In this document: positions 48,526 through 52,754 of the stretch, piece after piece
Position numbering within the stretch: position 1 is the stretch's first letter
How the letters are laid out: the number at the start of each line of letters is the position of its first letter
Origin: Phyllosticta citribraziliensis
Taxonomy: Eukaryota
Assembly (NCBI RefSeq): GCF_038025025.1
Contig: NW_027117346.1
Coordinates: 868,001 to 932,000, forward strand
Length of the DNA: 64,000 nucleotides
Direction of reading: 5' to 3'
Program-made: the position numbers and the translations under genes
Notes under the pieces: generated by a model
What the model saw: only the letters and a program-made list of their open reading frames with translations
What the model was told of the DNA's origin: nothing
Database searches by the model: none

Positions 48526-50818
48526 CTACTTGGCCCTATTCATCGGCCCCCAGTTGGCACGTGGATTCTGCTGATACCGGACCAACTTCTTGTCATCGCG
48601 GTCCTTGCCGAGCTTCTCGTCAAAGACGACGTCCATCTTATGCAGACGCTCCAGCTGCGATTCCTTCTCGACGCCCTGGGTCAGCGGTGCCGTCTCGTCG
48701 CTCTGAGCGGCCTTTTCGCCAGCCTCTTCTTCCTGTTCCTTCTCCTTTTCTTGCGCCGTCTCGTTGCTCTGATCGGCGTCTTTGCCAGCCTCTTCTTCCC
48801 TTTCTTTTTCTTGCTCCTCCTTTCCAGCCGCCGTCGTCGACTCGCCCTGCAAGCGGCGATTCTTCCACACCCCCCAGCCAGCCGTGCCCTCCTTGACGGC
48901 GCCCTCCTTGAACGGCGCCTTCTGCCGCACCCACTCGCGCATAATCTCCCACACAGCGGCCCACGGGGCGTCCGTCTTGATGGCGCCCGCGCGGCAGTGG
49001 GTGCGCGTTGTGCGGTAGCCGGCGTGGCGCAGGGCGCCCTTGATGGCCGCGCCCGACGGCGCCTGGCAGTGCAGCACGCGCGCGAGGCCGCTGATGTCGA
49101 AGAAGAAGGGGTGCGAGTCGGTCAGCGCCGGGTCGATTTGCGGAATGATGGGAGAGGGTTCTTCGGGCTTTGGTGTTTTTGATGACGGTATATATTGTGG
49201 CGCGGATGATGGGACGTAAGGGGATGCGGACTCAGCGGGCGAAAAGAGCGTTTCGTCGTGTGCGGTGCGCAGCATGCCTTCAATGCGCTCGGTCGTCGCG
49301 TACACCTCTTTGTCGAGGTCGGGGAGGTAGCCGAGAATCTTCTCAATGAAGGCTGGGTTGTGCAACGGTCCGCCGTACATGGGTCCGGCAATCTGAGGTA
49401 CAAGTCAGGTCACAAGAGTTCAATATTGACCTTTGTCCACTTACATGAGTCTTGAAACCGCAGTGCGGGCAGTTGGTGGGCGCAGAGGGACCTTGAGCCA
49501 TGCCGTACTTGTAAAACGGCCCCTTTTTGCCATGGACCGTGGAAGTCTTGCCAATGAATTGCGGCGTCCATGCTCCACAGCCCGAGTCGCAGTTGTATAC
49601 CAACATTGACTTGCCTGCCAGGAACTTGACATCCGCAGGACTCTTCTTTACTCTCACGAAGACTCTGGCGTAAAAGTCGATGGACAGGGAAAGCAGGGGC
49701 TCAATCGCGATTCCGTACTTGGCAGCGGTTGTGGCAATCGAGTGCAGGATGAGGCGCAAGCCGCCTTCATGAGCGTGATGACCCTTGACAGGGAGCCCGC
49801 CGTAGAGGCTGTACGCCTTCTCAGGGTAGCCAAATGAGTTGAAGACGCCGGCATCTGTGCATGTGACACACAAGAGACCACCGTCCGTGACTGCCTGCAA
49901 GGCGCCATCGAGGAATGGAACTGCCGAGCCATAGGGATCAAGGTCAATGACATGATATTTGGGCTGGGACGCGGTCGCAATGTCTTCTCCGACAAACTGA
50001 TACATGTGCGCGACGGCATTGCCAGCATTCGGCTTCACAACGTCCTCAACCTGGTTGTGGATGACGTTCAACTTCATGGCCCGAACAGCATCAGGAGAGA
50101 GATCATTGCCAGTAATTGAAGTGGCAAATGGTATTTCCTTTGCATATCGGAGAGCTCGGAGACCGGACGCGGAGAGCGCATCCAGAATGCGAAATGCAGG
50201 TTTCTTGGCGACGCCATTCGTAGAAGCATTCTGCTCCTCGCTGGCGGGTTGCTCTGTCCGCGGTTCTACGGCTGCAAGCAAATCTTGATCCTTCAGCACC
50301 GAGTCATCAAAGTTGGTGATCTCGCCACTGGATTTCTGTTGCTCACTGGCACCTGGTTCCGCCTCTGCCACTTCTGCCTCCTCTGCATTCTTCTCAGCCT
50401 CGTCGCCAGTACGCTGCCTCTTGTTTTCGTTACCAGTATGTTGTTCCTCATGTCCATCACCAACAGGCTTCCTCTTTTTGTTTGCCTTTGCCTTTGCCTT
50501 TCTTTTATCTTGCTGCTTCCGCTTGGCTTCCTTTTCGGCAAGGAAGGATTCGCCAAAAGCATAGATTGCGAGGACGCTGAGGTCGCGATTGAATTGCTGG
50601 ATGGGATTGTAAAAGACCTTTTGTCTTTCCTCGTCGGACTCGCCCTTATTGGCTTTCTTCGGGTCTGTCGAAGTTGCGGCGTTGGGCGGGACGAGAATGT
50701 GGGCCAGTCCTTCTCTCACGGTAGTATACTCTTTGCCCTCGTGTTGGATGCGTTGGCCAGCCTTGGGGGGGTCGGAGAGCGAGGCGGCAGGGGTGGTAGG
50801 TGCCGTGGCGCTTTCCAT
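48526..50818 (-). CDS. TRM1: tRNA (guanine26-N2,N2)-dimethyltransferase; 2 exons; possible non-AUG N-terminal extension to 50938
   Basis: VFYNPIQQFNRDLSV, ILDALSASGLRALRYAKE, IDLDPYGS, GGLLCVTCTD, DFYARVFVRV, CPHCG and IKTDAPW. Intron at 49393-49444. Confidence 0.95.
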
Positions 50819-51046
50819 GGTGGAAGCAGTCGAGCAAAAGTTTCTCGCGGCGGTGTTGTAGGACAAGCGTGGAATCTGGGCCGCTGGGATCACGTAGAAG
50901 CCGCGGGAGAAGCGCGGCAGGCGGCAGAGGAGAGCCAATGTTGGGACGTTGGCGCGTGGGCGGGCTTTGGGTATTCGGTGTGGATGGTGGTAGAGATGGT
51001 GACTTCACGGCGCATGGCAGACAGTCGACCGCGGTGAGGTGGAGAG

Positions 51047-51062
51047 TCCCAAAATTTTGGGA
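51047..51062. promoter_or_regulatory. 16-bp palindrome with RRPE-like AAAATTTT core upstream of TRM1
   Basis: TCCCAAAATTTTGGGA is its own reverse complement. Confidence 0.45.
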
Positions 51063-51466
51063 GCACGGTCCAGTCTGGTTCAGGTCCCCCCGGCCGGGAA
51101 GATCATCCGCGACGTGAGCTTATTTTAGTTGTTGCCGCCTATACGAAAATCCAGCATCTCACTACCATCCATCGGCTCCGTCGTCCAAAGAGGCTTCGTA
51201 TTTCCGCAGCCATTGGATTTCAACATGAGCTCCGTGCATAACACCTGATAGCGGGGTCTGGGACGGTGGCAGCCGCCGGGCCTAGCTATTTACAGCCTTT
51301 GTTGCCTGGTGGCTTGCTCACGGACTATCACCACGACCACGATAAATACTCGCCCCCAGCGCCTCACTCTCCTATTGCCTCCCTGTCATCGCTTGACTTC
51401 TTGCAGTCTTTCAGCTTGAACCTCTTTCGCATTGCGAATCATTCTTCCCTTCTTTGCAAGCTAAGA

Positions 51467-52754
51467 ATGGGCCGGCCCGCACCCCCTCCCGTCTACCGCG
51501 ACGACCCTGACGCTGTTTCTATGCACACTACGCGCGGCGACTATGAATACGACGATAGTCTCCAAGTAGACGATCAGCTGCCTGCGTACTCCGACCATGC
51601 AGGTCCCGTCTCAAAGTCAAACATCCCCAGCCAGGGACGAGCATCTCAGCTCCCCGAAGACGAGTACTCTGTGATTGAATGCGGCAACACTCAATACGCC
51701 TTCGGAAAACCGGTCAATACCAAGGCCGTGACTTTTCGGATCGATGAGCGTCTCACCGAGCCTTCGTGTCTCTTCAAGTATATTAGCGACGTTCTGACGG
51801 TGCTGCCGCCGAAGCCCCTCGTCCAAGTCCACGGCTATCACTGGCAGACGGTGCGCAAGGGCAACAAGAAAGAAAAGAAGCAAGTTGTCGACTTTGACAT
51901 CAAGCTCAACATGCAAAACTACCTGGGAGAGCCTACCCAGGACTGGTGCAAGCCAAGGACCGTTGGCAGCGCAGAAAAAGCTCTTCGTGGTGGTTTCAGG
52001 AAGACTGTTGCGAAGGATCCAAAAGGGGACTTGGAGGTCGGCGACTTGAAGCAGGATCTTTACGATTGGTGCAAAGAGTACTGCAACTCGAATCGGATGC
52101 TGAAGAGGTGCGCAAACCACATATCTGGTTCGGAAAGCCCACGCTGACATGAATGCTCCTTGTAGCTTCCGCATCAACCGCACCATCTCCGGTCTTGACA
52201 CCAACTTGATCCATCAACGCATTGAGGCTCTCATCCGGCAAACCAACTATCGTGGACACGTTCTCATCACTTTCCCGATCGAGAGCCGCGGCGTAGACAT
52301 TTACAACCCTCATCGCATCAACCGCTGGCGTACCACGCCCTGGATCCGCTGGATTTTCTACCTCTCTTTCCTTTGGCTGTTCACATGGCCACTGCTCTAC
52401 TTCTTCACTGCCCGTTGGGCCGTCTACACCGTCGACTGGCCCTTTAGTATCTCCATGTCGCAGTCACCGTCTGGCTCGGGACGCAACAACCGCAAGTGGG
52501 CGACTGTCAGCGAAGAGGCCTGGTTTCTGAAGCATCGGAAGCTCATTCGGCGCCTGGCGTTGTCGGGACACCAAGGCAATGCTGATGAGCTGGATTTGGA
52601 CGAGGAGTACGAGGAGCCGAGGGCAATCTCTGGTCGTTCAGGAAATGAGCATGTTGACACCGCTGTTGGCATTATCCAGGCTGGTGTCGCAGGATGGAAT
52701 GCTGTTCAAAGAGGCATGGGCCGGGACCCAGATGGATGGGGTGCTGACTGCTAA
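51467..52754 (+). CDS. Fungal hypothetical membrane protein; 2 exons
   Basis: Intron 52108-52165 (GTGCGC..CTGAC..TAG) joins two ORFs in frame (..LKS|FRINR..). It has an N-terminal LPAY motif, a Trp-rich TM segment WIRWIFYLSFLWLFTWPLLYFF, and ends GWGADC. Confidence 0.8.

What the first reader, a model, noticed from the sequence alone, without database searches (positions are those of the whole stretch)
50819..50938. TRM1 has an ATG-less, mitochondrial-presequence-like 40-codon extension starting at a TTG in strong context
Seen: upstream of the first in-frame ATG (50818) the frame reads LALLCRLPRFSRGFYVIPAAQIPRLSYNTAARNFCSTAST. It has five Arg, no Asp or Glu, and ends in an RNFCS cleavage-like motif. 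It starts at TTG (50938) in context CAACA-TTG-G (A at -3, G at +4). An in-frame TGA lies 23 codons further up with no ATG in between. An out-of-frame ATG uORF (51015-50890) overlaps it if transcription starts that far upstream. Known: yeast Trm1 serves both nucleus and mitochondria through alternative in-frame starts, and several fungal tRNA-related enzymes use near-cognate starts for the mitochondrial isoform. Inference: leaky non-AUG initiation makes a mitochondrial Trm1 isoform that standard annotation would miss.
Basis: partly seen in the sequence, partly recalled or inferred. Interest (0 to 1): 0.72.

Follow-up and report, generated by a model that had tools for sequence, protein, structure and literature searches.

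The report
UUG-started mitochondrial leader on fungal TRM1
A fungal tRNA-methyltransferase gene (TRM1) carries a 40-codon mitochondrial-signal-like leader that has no ATG and most likely starts at a UUG codon, and many related fungi show the same layout with CUG or GUG, which standard gene annotation misses.

Summary
The gene is TRM1 (PF02005) of a Phyllosticta species.

- **RNA cover.** RNA contigs from two studies cover the TTG. They end 38 to 41 nt upstream of it, with no splice and without reaching the out-of-frame ATG.
- **Relatives.** I fetched 80 metagenomic fungal TRM1 loci. The frame upstream of the main ATG is open for at least 31 codons in 66 of 66 distinct loci with at least 200 nt of upstream sequence. 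The other two frames are open for 27 or more codons in only 28 and 23 of 66.
- **ATG-less leaders.** 29 distinct leaders, the window included, have no upstream in-frame ATG. All 29 have an NUG codon (20 CTG, 8 GTG, the window's TTG) with A at -3 and GC at +4/+5, mostly exactly 40 codons before the main ATG.
- **Composition.** These leaders are almost free of acidic residues, 7 D/E in 1142.
- **Context logic.** Where relatives use an upstream ATG, its context is poor: purine at -3 in 6 of 39.

This is the weak-start then strong-start layout of leaky scanning. The best reading is a near-cognate-initiated mitochondrial isoform. That kind is known for fungal tRNA synthetases, but four library searches found no report of it for TRM1. 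Translation itself is untested. Confidence 0.72.

The parts
50936..50938 (-). Proposed near-cognate start codon UUG (TTG), context aca TTG gct (A at -3, G at +4, C at +5)
   Evidence: It sits at the same distance (-40 codons) and in the same context as the CTG or GTG of 28 distinct ATG-less TRM1 leaders from metagenomes.
50819..50938 (-). 40-codon ATG-less N-terminal extension, presequence-like: 5 Arg, 0 Asp/Glu, amphipathic N-terminal stretch
   Evidence: maximum 11-residue hydrophobic moment 0.68. BLASTP of the extension plus 20 aa against the N-terminal extension of P0006 gives 46% identity, E 2e-7.
50828..50842 (-). R-N-F-C-S, a candidate processing-peptidase (R-2/R-3-type) cleavage motif 4 to 8 residues before the main Met
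   Evidence: Read from the sequence. An R-x-[FLIYM] motif lies within the last 15 leader residues in 41 of 66 distinct loci. Cleavage itself is inferred.
50816..50818 (-). Main AUG in strong context (acc ATG g), start of the annotated 746-aa isoform
   Evidence: It is the annotated start in all five Phyllosticta models. Purine at -3 of the main ATG in 63 of 69 distinct leaders.
50939..50979 (-). 5' untranslated stretch before the UUG (38 to 41 nt). RNA contigs end at 50976 (X2, then adapter letters) and 50979 (X3).
   Evidence: tables 7 and 8. A DNA run (X4) continues beyond this point. This is a hint of the 5' end, not a mapped TSS.
50890..51015 (-). Its ATG lies upstream of the ends of both RNA contigs.
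   Evidence: sequence. One search shows no RNA contig covering 50980-51173.
51005..51007 (-). In-frame TGA that closes the frame 23 codons above the TTG
49445..50815 (-). Remainder of TRM1 exon 1, after the main ATG
   Evidence: The X1 RNA contig is contiguous over 49445-50783.
49393..49444 (-). 52-nt intron (GTAAGT..CAG)
   Evidence: RNA contigs of X1, X2 and X3 skip it (table 5). Ends read.
48526..49392 (-). TRM1 exon 2 including the stop. Spliced products are 786 aa from the UUG and 746 aa from the AUG.
   Evidence: 646 of 647 residues of P0004 and 699 of 742 of P0001 are identical.

Best explanation
The TRM1 mRNA of this Phyllosticta starts about 40 nt upstream of a UUG codon that sits in the optimal fungal context (A at -3, GC at +4/+5).

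A minority of scanning ribosomes initiate there with Met-tRNAi. They make a 786-aa protein whose first 40 residues form a basic, acid-free, amphipathic mitochondrial presequence. That isoform is imported and probably cut near R33-N-F-C-S, which leaves an enzyme almost identical to the nuclear one. It would make m2,2G26 on mitochondrial tRNAs.

Most ribosomes scan past the UUG. No AUG in any frame intervenes over the 120 nt to the main start, so they begin at the strong-context AUG (50818) and make the 746-aa nuclear/cytosolic isoform.

Shown here: the sequence anatomy, RNA cover of the UUG, conservation of the open frame, the composition of the leader, and the start-codon context across lineages. 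Inferred: initiation at the UUG, import, the cleavage site and the ratio of isoforms.
For: **1. RNA.** X2 and X3 are RNA, because both skip the 52-nt intron. Their contigs cover the TTG and stop at 50976 and 50979 with no joint in the leader. X2 has no difference from the window anywhere in the leader.

**2. Open frame.** Frame 0 upstream of the main ATG is open for at least 31 codons in 66 of 66 distinct loci. The other frames are open for 27 or more codons in 28 and 23 of 66.

**3. Start codon.**
- 34 of 78 sequences (33 loci and the window) have no in-frame upstream ATG.
- Their 29 informative distinct leaders all carry an NUG: 20 CTG, 8 GTG and the window's TTG. All have A at -3 and GC at +4/+5, 31 to 51 codons before the main ATG, and most lie at exactly 40 codons, as in the window.
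- In eight of them an in-frame stop lies only 2 to 5 codons above the NUG.
- Two leaders 94% alike differ by GTG against CTG at this codon.

**4. Context logic.** In the 39 distinct leaders that do have an upstream in-frame ATG, that ATG has purine at -3 in 6, G at +4 in 4, and both in 2. The main ATG has purine at -3 in 35 of 39 and 28 of 30.

**5. Composition.** Between the NUG and the ATG there are 7 D/E in 1142 residues and 168 R/K. The same frame upstream of the NUG has 70 D/E in 1069. The 40 residues after the ATG have 161 in 1160.

**6. Homology.**
- The window's leader plus 20 aa aligns to the extension of a Lasiodiplodia-like ORF (P0006) at 46% identity, E 2e-7.
- In a Botryosphaeriaceae-like ORF (P0007) the aligned column holds an internal Met, which must be a real ATG.

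**7. Indels.**
- In the ~10% diverged DNA contig of X4, all 16 gap letters lie at 50987 or further upstream. None lies in the leader (tables 4 and 8).
- Among metagenomic pairs, the leader is gap-free in 11 of 16. In three pairs with 15 to 36% leader divergence, the 120 nt above the NUG carry 5 or 6 gaps.

**8. Precedent.** Fungal tRNA synthetases are dual-localised from upstream near-cognate codons, and swaps between weak AUGs and near-cognate codons are described as recurrent (PMC7049704, passages read). Trm1 serves both cytoplasmic and mitochondrial tRNAs in yeast and humans (PMC10275265, passage read).
Against: - No ribosome, peptide or localisation data exist for this organism or any relative examined.
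- No presequence predictor (TargetP, MitoFates) was available. The targeting call rests on composition and a hydrophobic-moment figure.
- The amino-acid sequence of the leader evolves fast. Summed over 16 non-independent pairs, substitutions by codon position are 108/104/140 in the leader against 80/78/292 in the following coding part. The dN/dS-type signal is weak, and the constraint is on frame, length, composition and start context.
- The window is the only case with TTG. From recall, UUG is usually a weaker initiator than CUG.
- The deepest RNA run (X1) has a contig that stops at 50783 and nothing over 50784-51173. The tool says such a hole proves nothing, but X1 gives no support either.
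- The adapter letters after 50976 in X2 also occur at a mid-gene coverage break (49779). The 5' end is therefore only hinted.
- The substitutions of the other Phyllosticta-like organisms inside the leader were not shown, because the read laying tables were cut. I could not check whether the TTG and the open frame hold within the genus.
- The leader alone shows no significant BLASTP match to P0007.
Confidence: 0.72

Rival explanations
1. The stretch is only 5' untranslated leader in Phyllosticta. An ancestral ATG-started presequence, as in Botryosphaeriaceae, lost its ATG by an A-to-T change. The mitochondrial isoform is no longer made from this gene, or import relies on signals inside the main protein, and the frame is a young relic.
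For: - Botryosphaeriaceae-like P0007 has a real ATG in the aligned column, so ATG to TTG is a single step.
- Amino-acid constraint on such leaders is weak.
- The window is the only TTG among 29 leaders.
- X1 gives no RNA cover of the leader.
- From recall: in yeast, the shorter Trm1 isoform can also enter mitochondria (Ellis et al. 1987).
Against: - The TTG keeps the exact context (A at -3, GC at +4/+5) and the exact 40-codon distance found at the CTG or GTG of 28 other ATG-less leaders.
- The leader keeps 0 D/E and 5 R.
- A ~10% diverged relative has 8 indels just upstream and none in the leader.
- ATG-less leaders persist across a whole order-level group, which shows that loss of the ATG does not mean loss of the isoform.
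Confidence: 0.15
2. The extension is translated, but from another near-cognate codon and not the TTG at 50938. Candidates are the in-frame CTG at -34, GTG at -25, ATC at -24, ATT at -19 or TTG at -16. Several may be used together.
For: These codons exist in frame (row WIN). From recall, multiple near-cognate starts are known in other fungal leaders, such as N. crassa cpc-1.
Against: - Only the TTG at -40 has purine at -3 and G at +4.
- Only this column is conserved as NUG across lineages.
- A start at -25 or later would lose the amphipathic Arg-rich N-terminal part.
- The in-frame ATA at -52 lies within 2 to 5 nt of the RNA contig ends.
Confidence: 0.08
3. A longer or spliced transcript supplies a real ATG. 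For example, the ATG at 51015 could be joined in frame by a 44-nt GT..AG intron (51008-50965), or an upstream exon could be used.
For: Removing 51008-50965 (GTGAAG..AAG) would put the ATG at 51015 in frame with the leader. This is my own reading.
Against: - No RNA contig shows a joint in the leader, whereas the true intron is skipped in three runs.
- Both RNA contigs that reach the leader end at 50976-50979, inside that hypothetical intron.
- 44 nt with an AAG acceptor and no branch-site-like motif would be a poor fungal intron (established knowledge).
- In eight relatives an in-frame stop lies 2 to 5 codons above the NUG.
- Annotated Pleosporales models, including the 5'-partial P0043, show no upstream ATG exon.
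Confidence: 0.03

Closest known systems
S. cerevisiae TRM1, with two in-frame AUGs (Ellis, Hopper and Martin 1989, Mol Cell Biol 9:1611; only the title was seen, in a reference list; details recalled)
   Same: It is the same enzyme family (PF02005). One gene serves nucleus/cytosol and mitochondria (PMC10275265). An N-terminal extension made from an upstream in-frame start improves mitochondrial import. 44 of 78 sequences examined here (77 loci and the window) keep this two-ATG layout.
   Different: The window has no upstream ATG. The upstream start is a UUG. The extension is 40 codons; from recall, the yeast one is 16.
[quoted passage not shown] 2020, PMC7049704, passages read)
   Same: An upstream near-cognate codon in otherwise strong context is followed by a predicted mitochondrial presequence and then a strong-context AUG. 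Weak AUGs and near-cognate codons have been exchanged repeatedly between fungal lineages.
   Different: The protein differs: a tRNA methyltransferase, not a synthetase. TRM1 is not mentioned in that paper ('trm' 0 occurrences). Those cases have ribosome-profiling support and this one has none.
Yeast GRS1 (UUG), ALA1 (ACG-ACG) and HFA1 (AUU) mitochondrial isoforms (recalled; ALA1 and HFA1 are also named in earlier scan notes e1-575084 and e1-574100)
   Same: A non-AUG-initiated N-terminal extension carries the mitochondrial signal of an enzyme that is otherwise cytosolic. GRS1 uses UUG, as here.
   Different: The genes and the clade differ (Saccharomycotina). Those cases are experimentally proven. 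None concerns TRM1.
Non-AUG peroxisomal isoform of fungal 6-phosphogluconate dehydrogenase (PMC7214817; search listing and start of abstract only)
   Same: A cryptic targeting signal is encoded in what is annotated as the 5' UTR of a fungal gene and is reached by non-AUG initiation.
   Different: The signal is a peroxisomal PTS2, not a mitochondrial presequence, and the enzyme is different.

Membership tests
TRM1 / N2,N2-dimethylguanosine tRNA methyltransferase (Pfam PF02005) | Significant match to the TRM domain profile above the curated cut-off | tested here: met
   270 bits against a cut-off of 27, E 4e-80; top hits are annotated Phyllosticta and Botryosphaeriales TRM1 proteins.
Dual-localised protein via an upstream near-cognate start (DualNCC sensu PMC7049704) | In-frame near-cognate codon upstream of the annotated AUG, with no in-frame stop and no AUG in between | tested here: met
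   (0 ATG in any frame over 50938-50819)
Dual-localised protein via an upstream near-cognate start (DualNCC sensu PMC7049704) | Near-cognate codon in strong context, followed by a strong-context main AUG | tested here: met
   aca TTG gc and acc ATG g
Dual-localised protein via an upstream near-cognate start (DualNCC sensu PMC7049704) | The mRNA contains the near-cognate codon | tested here: met
   RNA contigs of X2 (to 50976) and X3 (to 50979) cover 50938. X1 gives no cover.
Dual-localised protein via an upstream near-cognate start (DualNCC sensu PMC7049704) | A dedicated predictor calls the extension a mitochondrial targeting sequence | tested here: inconclusive
   No TargetP or MitoFates was available. 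Proxies fit: 0 D/E, 5 R, hydrophobic moment 0.68, an R-x-F motif, and 7 D/E in 1142 residues across 29 leaders.
Dual-localised protein via an upstream near-cognate start (DualNCC sensu PMC7049704) | Ribosome occupancy or protein product starting at the near-cognate codon | not testable with these tools
   No ribosome-profiling or proteomic data could be reached.
Dual-localised protein via an upstream near-cognate start (DualNCC sensu PMC7049704) | Conservation of the extension and its start codon in relatives | tested here: met
   for other orders. Within the genus only the absence of indels could be seen.
Two-AUG TRM1 layout (yeast type) | An upstream in-frame AUG that starts the extension | tested here: not met
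   no ATG between the in-frame TGA and the main ATG. 44 of 78 sequences examined do have one.

The most novel reading that the evidence does not exclude
Near-cognate initiation of the mitochondrial TRM1 isoform is not a Phyllosticta oddity. It is the fixed, ancient state of whole fungal lineages: CUG in Pleosporales-like fungi, GUG in a second unnamed clade, and UUG in Phyllosticta.

AUG and NUG have been exchanged repeatedly at the same codon position, and context has been tuned in the opposite sense each time: perfect context for NUG, poor context for AUG. Every current TRM1 gene model in these lineages would then lack its mitochondrial isoform.

A conserved 4-codon out-of-frame uORF nested inside the presequence of the Pleosporales-like leaders may further set the ratio of isoforms.
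Probability: 0.6. Interest if true: 0.6.

Novelty: new member of a known kind. Interest (0 to 1): 0.5.

Why it matters
- **Function.** TRM1 makes m2,2G26 on both nuclear-encoded and mitochondrial tRNAs. How the enzyme reaches mitochondria in filamentous ascomycetes is not annotated. If the UUG/CUG/GUG starts are real, the gene models of TRM1 lack the isoform that serves mitochondrial translation. This would hold across Phyllosticta and the Pleosporales-like fungi, a group that includes many crop pathogens and endophytes.
- **Natural experiment.** The data set compares 39 weak-context AUG starts with 29 perfect-context NUG starts at one homologous position. It gives a clean view of how start-codon identity and context are traded against each other to keep a leaky first start.
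- **Annotation rule.** Look for ATG-less, acid-free open frames above strong-context ATGs of enzymes that also act in organelles.

Tried and rejected
- **Whole genome.** No genome is held for this window, so I made no genome-wide checks.
- **The listing of cluster members.** I wanted extension-bearing ORFs of other Phyllosticta hidden inside the 90% clusters. The shared database was switched off and the query could not be made.
- **Short or partial ORFs with the leader (lengths 'shorter', residues 1-110).** 14 candidates, none at E <= 0.001.
- **Read laying.**
  - The tables were cut (198 substitution rows and 16 indel rows not shown), and the cap is one call. The substitutions of organisms B and C inside the leader could not be read.
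  - X1's lack of cover over 50784-51173 is a hole and is not counted as evidence.
- **Hairpin after the start codon.** The window has a local 6-bp GC stem 18 nt after the UUG. The leader as a whole folds no better than shuffles (z -0.47). Across 23 leaders the mean z is -0.37. This gives no support and I dropped the idea.
- **BLASTP of the 40-aa leader alone against P0007.** Not significant.
- **dN/dS-type signal.** Only a modest third-position excess in the leader. I do not use it as strong evidence.
- **Upstream gaps in the L011-L022 and L030-L022 pairs.** These are artefacts of a locus cut at its end, and I left them out of the argument.
- **Excluded loci.** L014, L052 and L053 had no identifiable main ATG, and L062 is cut after 3 leader codons. 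They are excluded from the start-codon counts. L073 has an atypical distance from ATG to motif and may hold an intron. It is counted but is doubtful.
- **Literature.** Four searches found no report of non-AUG initiation for TRM1:
  - Trm1 + non-AUG + mitochondrial (14 papers)
  - near-cognate + mitochondrial targeting + N-terminal extension + fungi (8 papers)
  - Trm1 + near-cognate (40 papers, 15 listed)
  - dimethylguanosine + alternative translation + mitochondrial + in-frame (1 paper)

  In the K. marxianus preprint the 'trm1' hits were TRM112. Subscription journals and supplements were not searched.
- **Ellis et al. 1989 (PMC362578).** Not held.
- **TargetP/MitoFates.** Not available.

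Full report
**Observation**

On the minus strand the window holds a two-exon TRM1 gene.
- Exon 1 runs from 50818 to 49445. A 52-nt GTAAGT..CAG intron covers 49444-49393. Exon 2 runs from 49392 to 48526. The protein matches PF02005 at 270 bits.
- Its product is 646 of 647 residues identical to an annotated Phyllosticta citribraziliensis protein, and 699 of 742 identical to that of P. citrichinensis. The window is therefore a Phyllosticta (Botryosphaeriales, Dothideomycetes).

- The first in-frame ATG is at 50818 (acc ATG g).
- Above it lie 40 in-frame codons without an ATG, which read LALLCRLPRFSRGFYVIPAAQIPRLSYNTAARNFCSTAST. They hold 5 Arg and no Asp or Glu.
- A TTG lies at 50938 in context aca TTG gct.
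- An in-frame TGA lies at 51007-51005, 23 codons further up.
- An out-of-frame ATG at 51015 opens a 41-codon uORF that ends at 50890.
- All five annotated Phyllosticta models start at the downstream ATG (MES...), as do the annotated Botryosphaeriaceae models.

**RNA evidence**

I laid four coded runs on 49200-51500. X1, X2 and X3 are RNA, because their contigs skip 49393-49444.
- X2 comes from an organism nearly identical to the window. Its contig covers 50126-50976 with three differences, none in the leader, and then runs into sequencing-adapter letters.
- X3 comes from a ~2.4% diverged organism in another study. Its contig covers 50650-50979 with 8 substitutions and no gap.
- X4 is DNA and carries on upstream.

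Three things follow. The mRNA contains the TTG with 38 to 41 nt in front of it. No splice joins the leader to an upstream exon. The ATG at 51015 is not covered by any RNA contig.

The coincidence of two contig ends within 3 nt hints at the 5' end. It is only a hint, because the same adapter letters also occur at a mid-gene coverage break in X2. X1, the deepest run, has a contig that ends at 50783 and nothing until 51174. The tool warns that such holes prove nothing.

In the X4 contig that differs from the window at 39 of 384 aligned places, all 16 gap letters (8 indels) lie between 50987 and 51033. None lies between the main ATG and 50986.

**Relatives**

Two Logan-derived ORFs of Botryosphaeriaceae-like fungi carry an extension before the annotated Met.
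- P0006 reads MRLTPILSQLSHISRAAVVPAWRIPTSLSARQFHSAKPT-MAETST.
- P0007 has an internal ...VLMRLTLSLRRF....
- The window's leader plus 20 residues aligns with P0006 right through the extension (46% identity, E 2e-7). The leader alone against P0007 is not significant.
- The internal Met of P0007 must be a true ATG. MAFFT places it in the column of the window's TTG.

I then scanned metagenome contigs with an alignment of N-terminal parts. This returned 80 fungal TRM1 loci with upstream DNA.
- 77 of them have an identifiable main ATG.
- In 66 of 66 distinct leaders with at least 200 nt upstream, the main frame is open for at least 31 codons above the main ATG (median 53).
- The two other frames are open for 27 or more codons in only 28 and 23 of 66.

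An N-terminal extension is therefore a general property of TRM1 in these fungi.

**Two ways to start the extension**

- **With an upstream ATG.** 44 of the 78 sequences (77 loci and the window) have an upstream in-frame ATG. Their nearest named relatives are Helotiales- and Mycosphaerellales-type proteins.
- **Without one.** 34 of 78 have none. These collapse to 30 distinct leaders, one of which is cut at a contig end.
  - All 29 informative ones have an NUG codon with A at -3 and GC at +4/+5: 20 CTG, 8 GTG and the window's TTG. It lies 31 to 51 codons above the main ATG, and in most of the CTG group at exactly 40, as in the window.
  - The nearest named relatives of the CTG group are Pleosporales such as Pyrenophora, Ophiobolus, Ascochyta and Plenodomus. 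An NCBI 5'-partial Plenodomus model (P0043) shows the same ATG-less extension.
  - In eight leaders an in-frame stop lies 2 to 5 codons above the NUG, so nothing further upstream can start the frame.
  - Two leaders 94% alike have GTG against CTG at this codon.

Where the extension starts with ATG, that ATG sits in poor context: purine at -3 in 6 of 39, G at +4 in 4 of 39, both in 2 of 39. The main ATG has purine at -3 in 35 of 39 and 28 of 30. A weak first start, made either as a poor-context AUG or as a perfect-context NUG, followed by a strong AUG is the signature of leaky scanning. Selection would have no reason to maintain these contexts if the first codons were not start sites.

**Nature of the extension**

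- From the NUG to the main ATG, the 29 leaders hold 7 Asp/Glu in 1142 residues and 168 Arg/Lys.
- The same frame in the 40 codons above the NUG holds 70 Asp/Glu in 1069, and the 40 residues after the main ATG hold 161 in 1160.
- In the window, a 100-degree helical wheel of residues 1-16 puts Arg6, Arg9 and Arg12 on one face and Leu3, Leu7, Phe10 and Phe14 on the other. This is my own reading. The maximum 11-residue hydrophobic moment is 0.68.
- An R-x-[FLIYM] motif lies in the last 15 residues in 41 of 66 distinct leaders. Examples are RAFH, RNFH and RALH, and RNFC in the window. This fits the R-2/R-3 rule for the matrix processing peptidase, which is established knowledge. Cleavage itself is inferred.

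The amino-acid sequence is poorly conserved. Substitutions by codon position sum to 108/104/140 in the leader against 80/78/292 in the following coding part, over 16 non-independent pairs. The constraint is on frame, length, composition and start context, as is usual for presequences. The leader is gap-free in 11 of 16 pairs. In three pairs with 15 to 36% leader divergence, the 120 nt above the NUG carry 5 or 6 gaps.

**Mechanism proposed**

- The 43S complex loads at a cap near 50976-50979.
- It meets UUG 50938 in optimal context, and a minority of complexes initiate there.
- No AUG in any frame lies between that codon and the main AUG, so the rest initiate at 50818.
- The long form (786 aa) is imported and trimmed near R33. 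The short form (746 aa) stays nuclear/cytosolic.

The steps from initiation onward are inferred.

**Rivals**

- A relic leader after loss of the ATG (0.15).
- A different near-cognate start inside the leader (0.08).
- A spliced or longer transcript that supplies ATG 51015 (0.03). A 44-nt GT..AG removal of 51008-50965 would put that ATG in frame, but no RNA contig shows it and both contigs end inside that interval.

A start-enhancing hairpin was tested and found no support.

**What is known**

- Trm1 modifies cytoplasmic and mitochondrial tRNAs in yeast and humans (PMC10275265, passage).
- Yeast TRM1 uses an upstream AUG to improve import (Ellis et al. 1989; title seen in a reference list; details recalled).
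- Upstream near-cognate starts give mitochondrial isoforms of fungal tRNA synthetases, and swaps between weak AUGs and near-cognate codons are described as recurrent (PMC7049704, passages).
- ALA1 and HFA1 of yeast were met earlier in this scan (not tested here).
- Four library searches found no report for TRM1.

**Verdict**

- It is a new member of a known kind, and the pattern extends beyond the window to whole lineages.
- Interest 0.5. Confidence in the main reading 0.72.

Noticed in passing
L003, L005, L007, L008, L011, L024, L030, L033, L044 (ATG at -49 from the main ATG); L012, L020 (-46); L029, L032, L036 (-67 to -85): Inside the presequence-coding leader of the Pleosporales-like loci there is a conserved out-of-frame ATG that opens a 4-codon uORF, ending 31 to 34 nt before the main ATG in most loci. 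The ATG is kept even where the overlapping amino acid changes (Trp or Cys codon after a codon ending in A). The window has no such ATG. It may tune how many ribosomes reach the main ATG, or it may be a by-product of the conserved W/C residue.
   Followed up: partly
window 49445-50783 (-): The annotated P. citribraziliensis model P0004 (647 aa) lacks about 99 residues that the window encodes in one piece. The X1 RNA contig is contiguous over 49445-50783 and 49200-49392 with only the 52-nt intron. The extra introns of that public gene model therefore seem unsupported by RNA.
   Followed up: partly
window 51174-51500 (+): A divergent neighbour gene is transcribed from about 51174 (X1) or 51239 (X2), at much higher contig depth than TRM1 (11329 against 521 in X1). 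Only about 200 nt separate the two apparent 5' ends, which suggests a shared bidirectional promoter. I did not identify the gene.
   Followed up: no
window 50783 (-): The deep RNA contig of X1 stops at 50783, 35 nt inside the main coding frame, with no loose end and no other X1 contig up to 51174. The cause is unknown. It may be a graph break, a filter, or a real minor 5' end.
   Followed up: no
L016-L019, L023, L025, L038, L039, L054, L058: A second, unnamed fungal clade (nearest proteins P0096, P0030 and P0107, all without names) uses GTG in the motif [I/T/K]-V-A-[C/G/F]-L, 27 to 35 codons above the main ATG. Its taxonomy was not resolved.
   Followed up: partly
window 48560-48900 (-): The C-terminal part of TRM1 holds a Lys/Glu-rich stretch with repeated motifs (...EKEKEQEEEAGEKAAQSDETA...). 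Its length differs between Phyllosticta species (746 aa in the window; 742, 735 and 755 aa in P0001-P0003).
   Followed up: no
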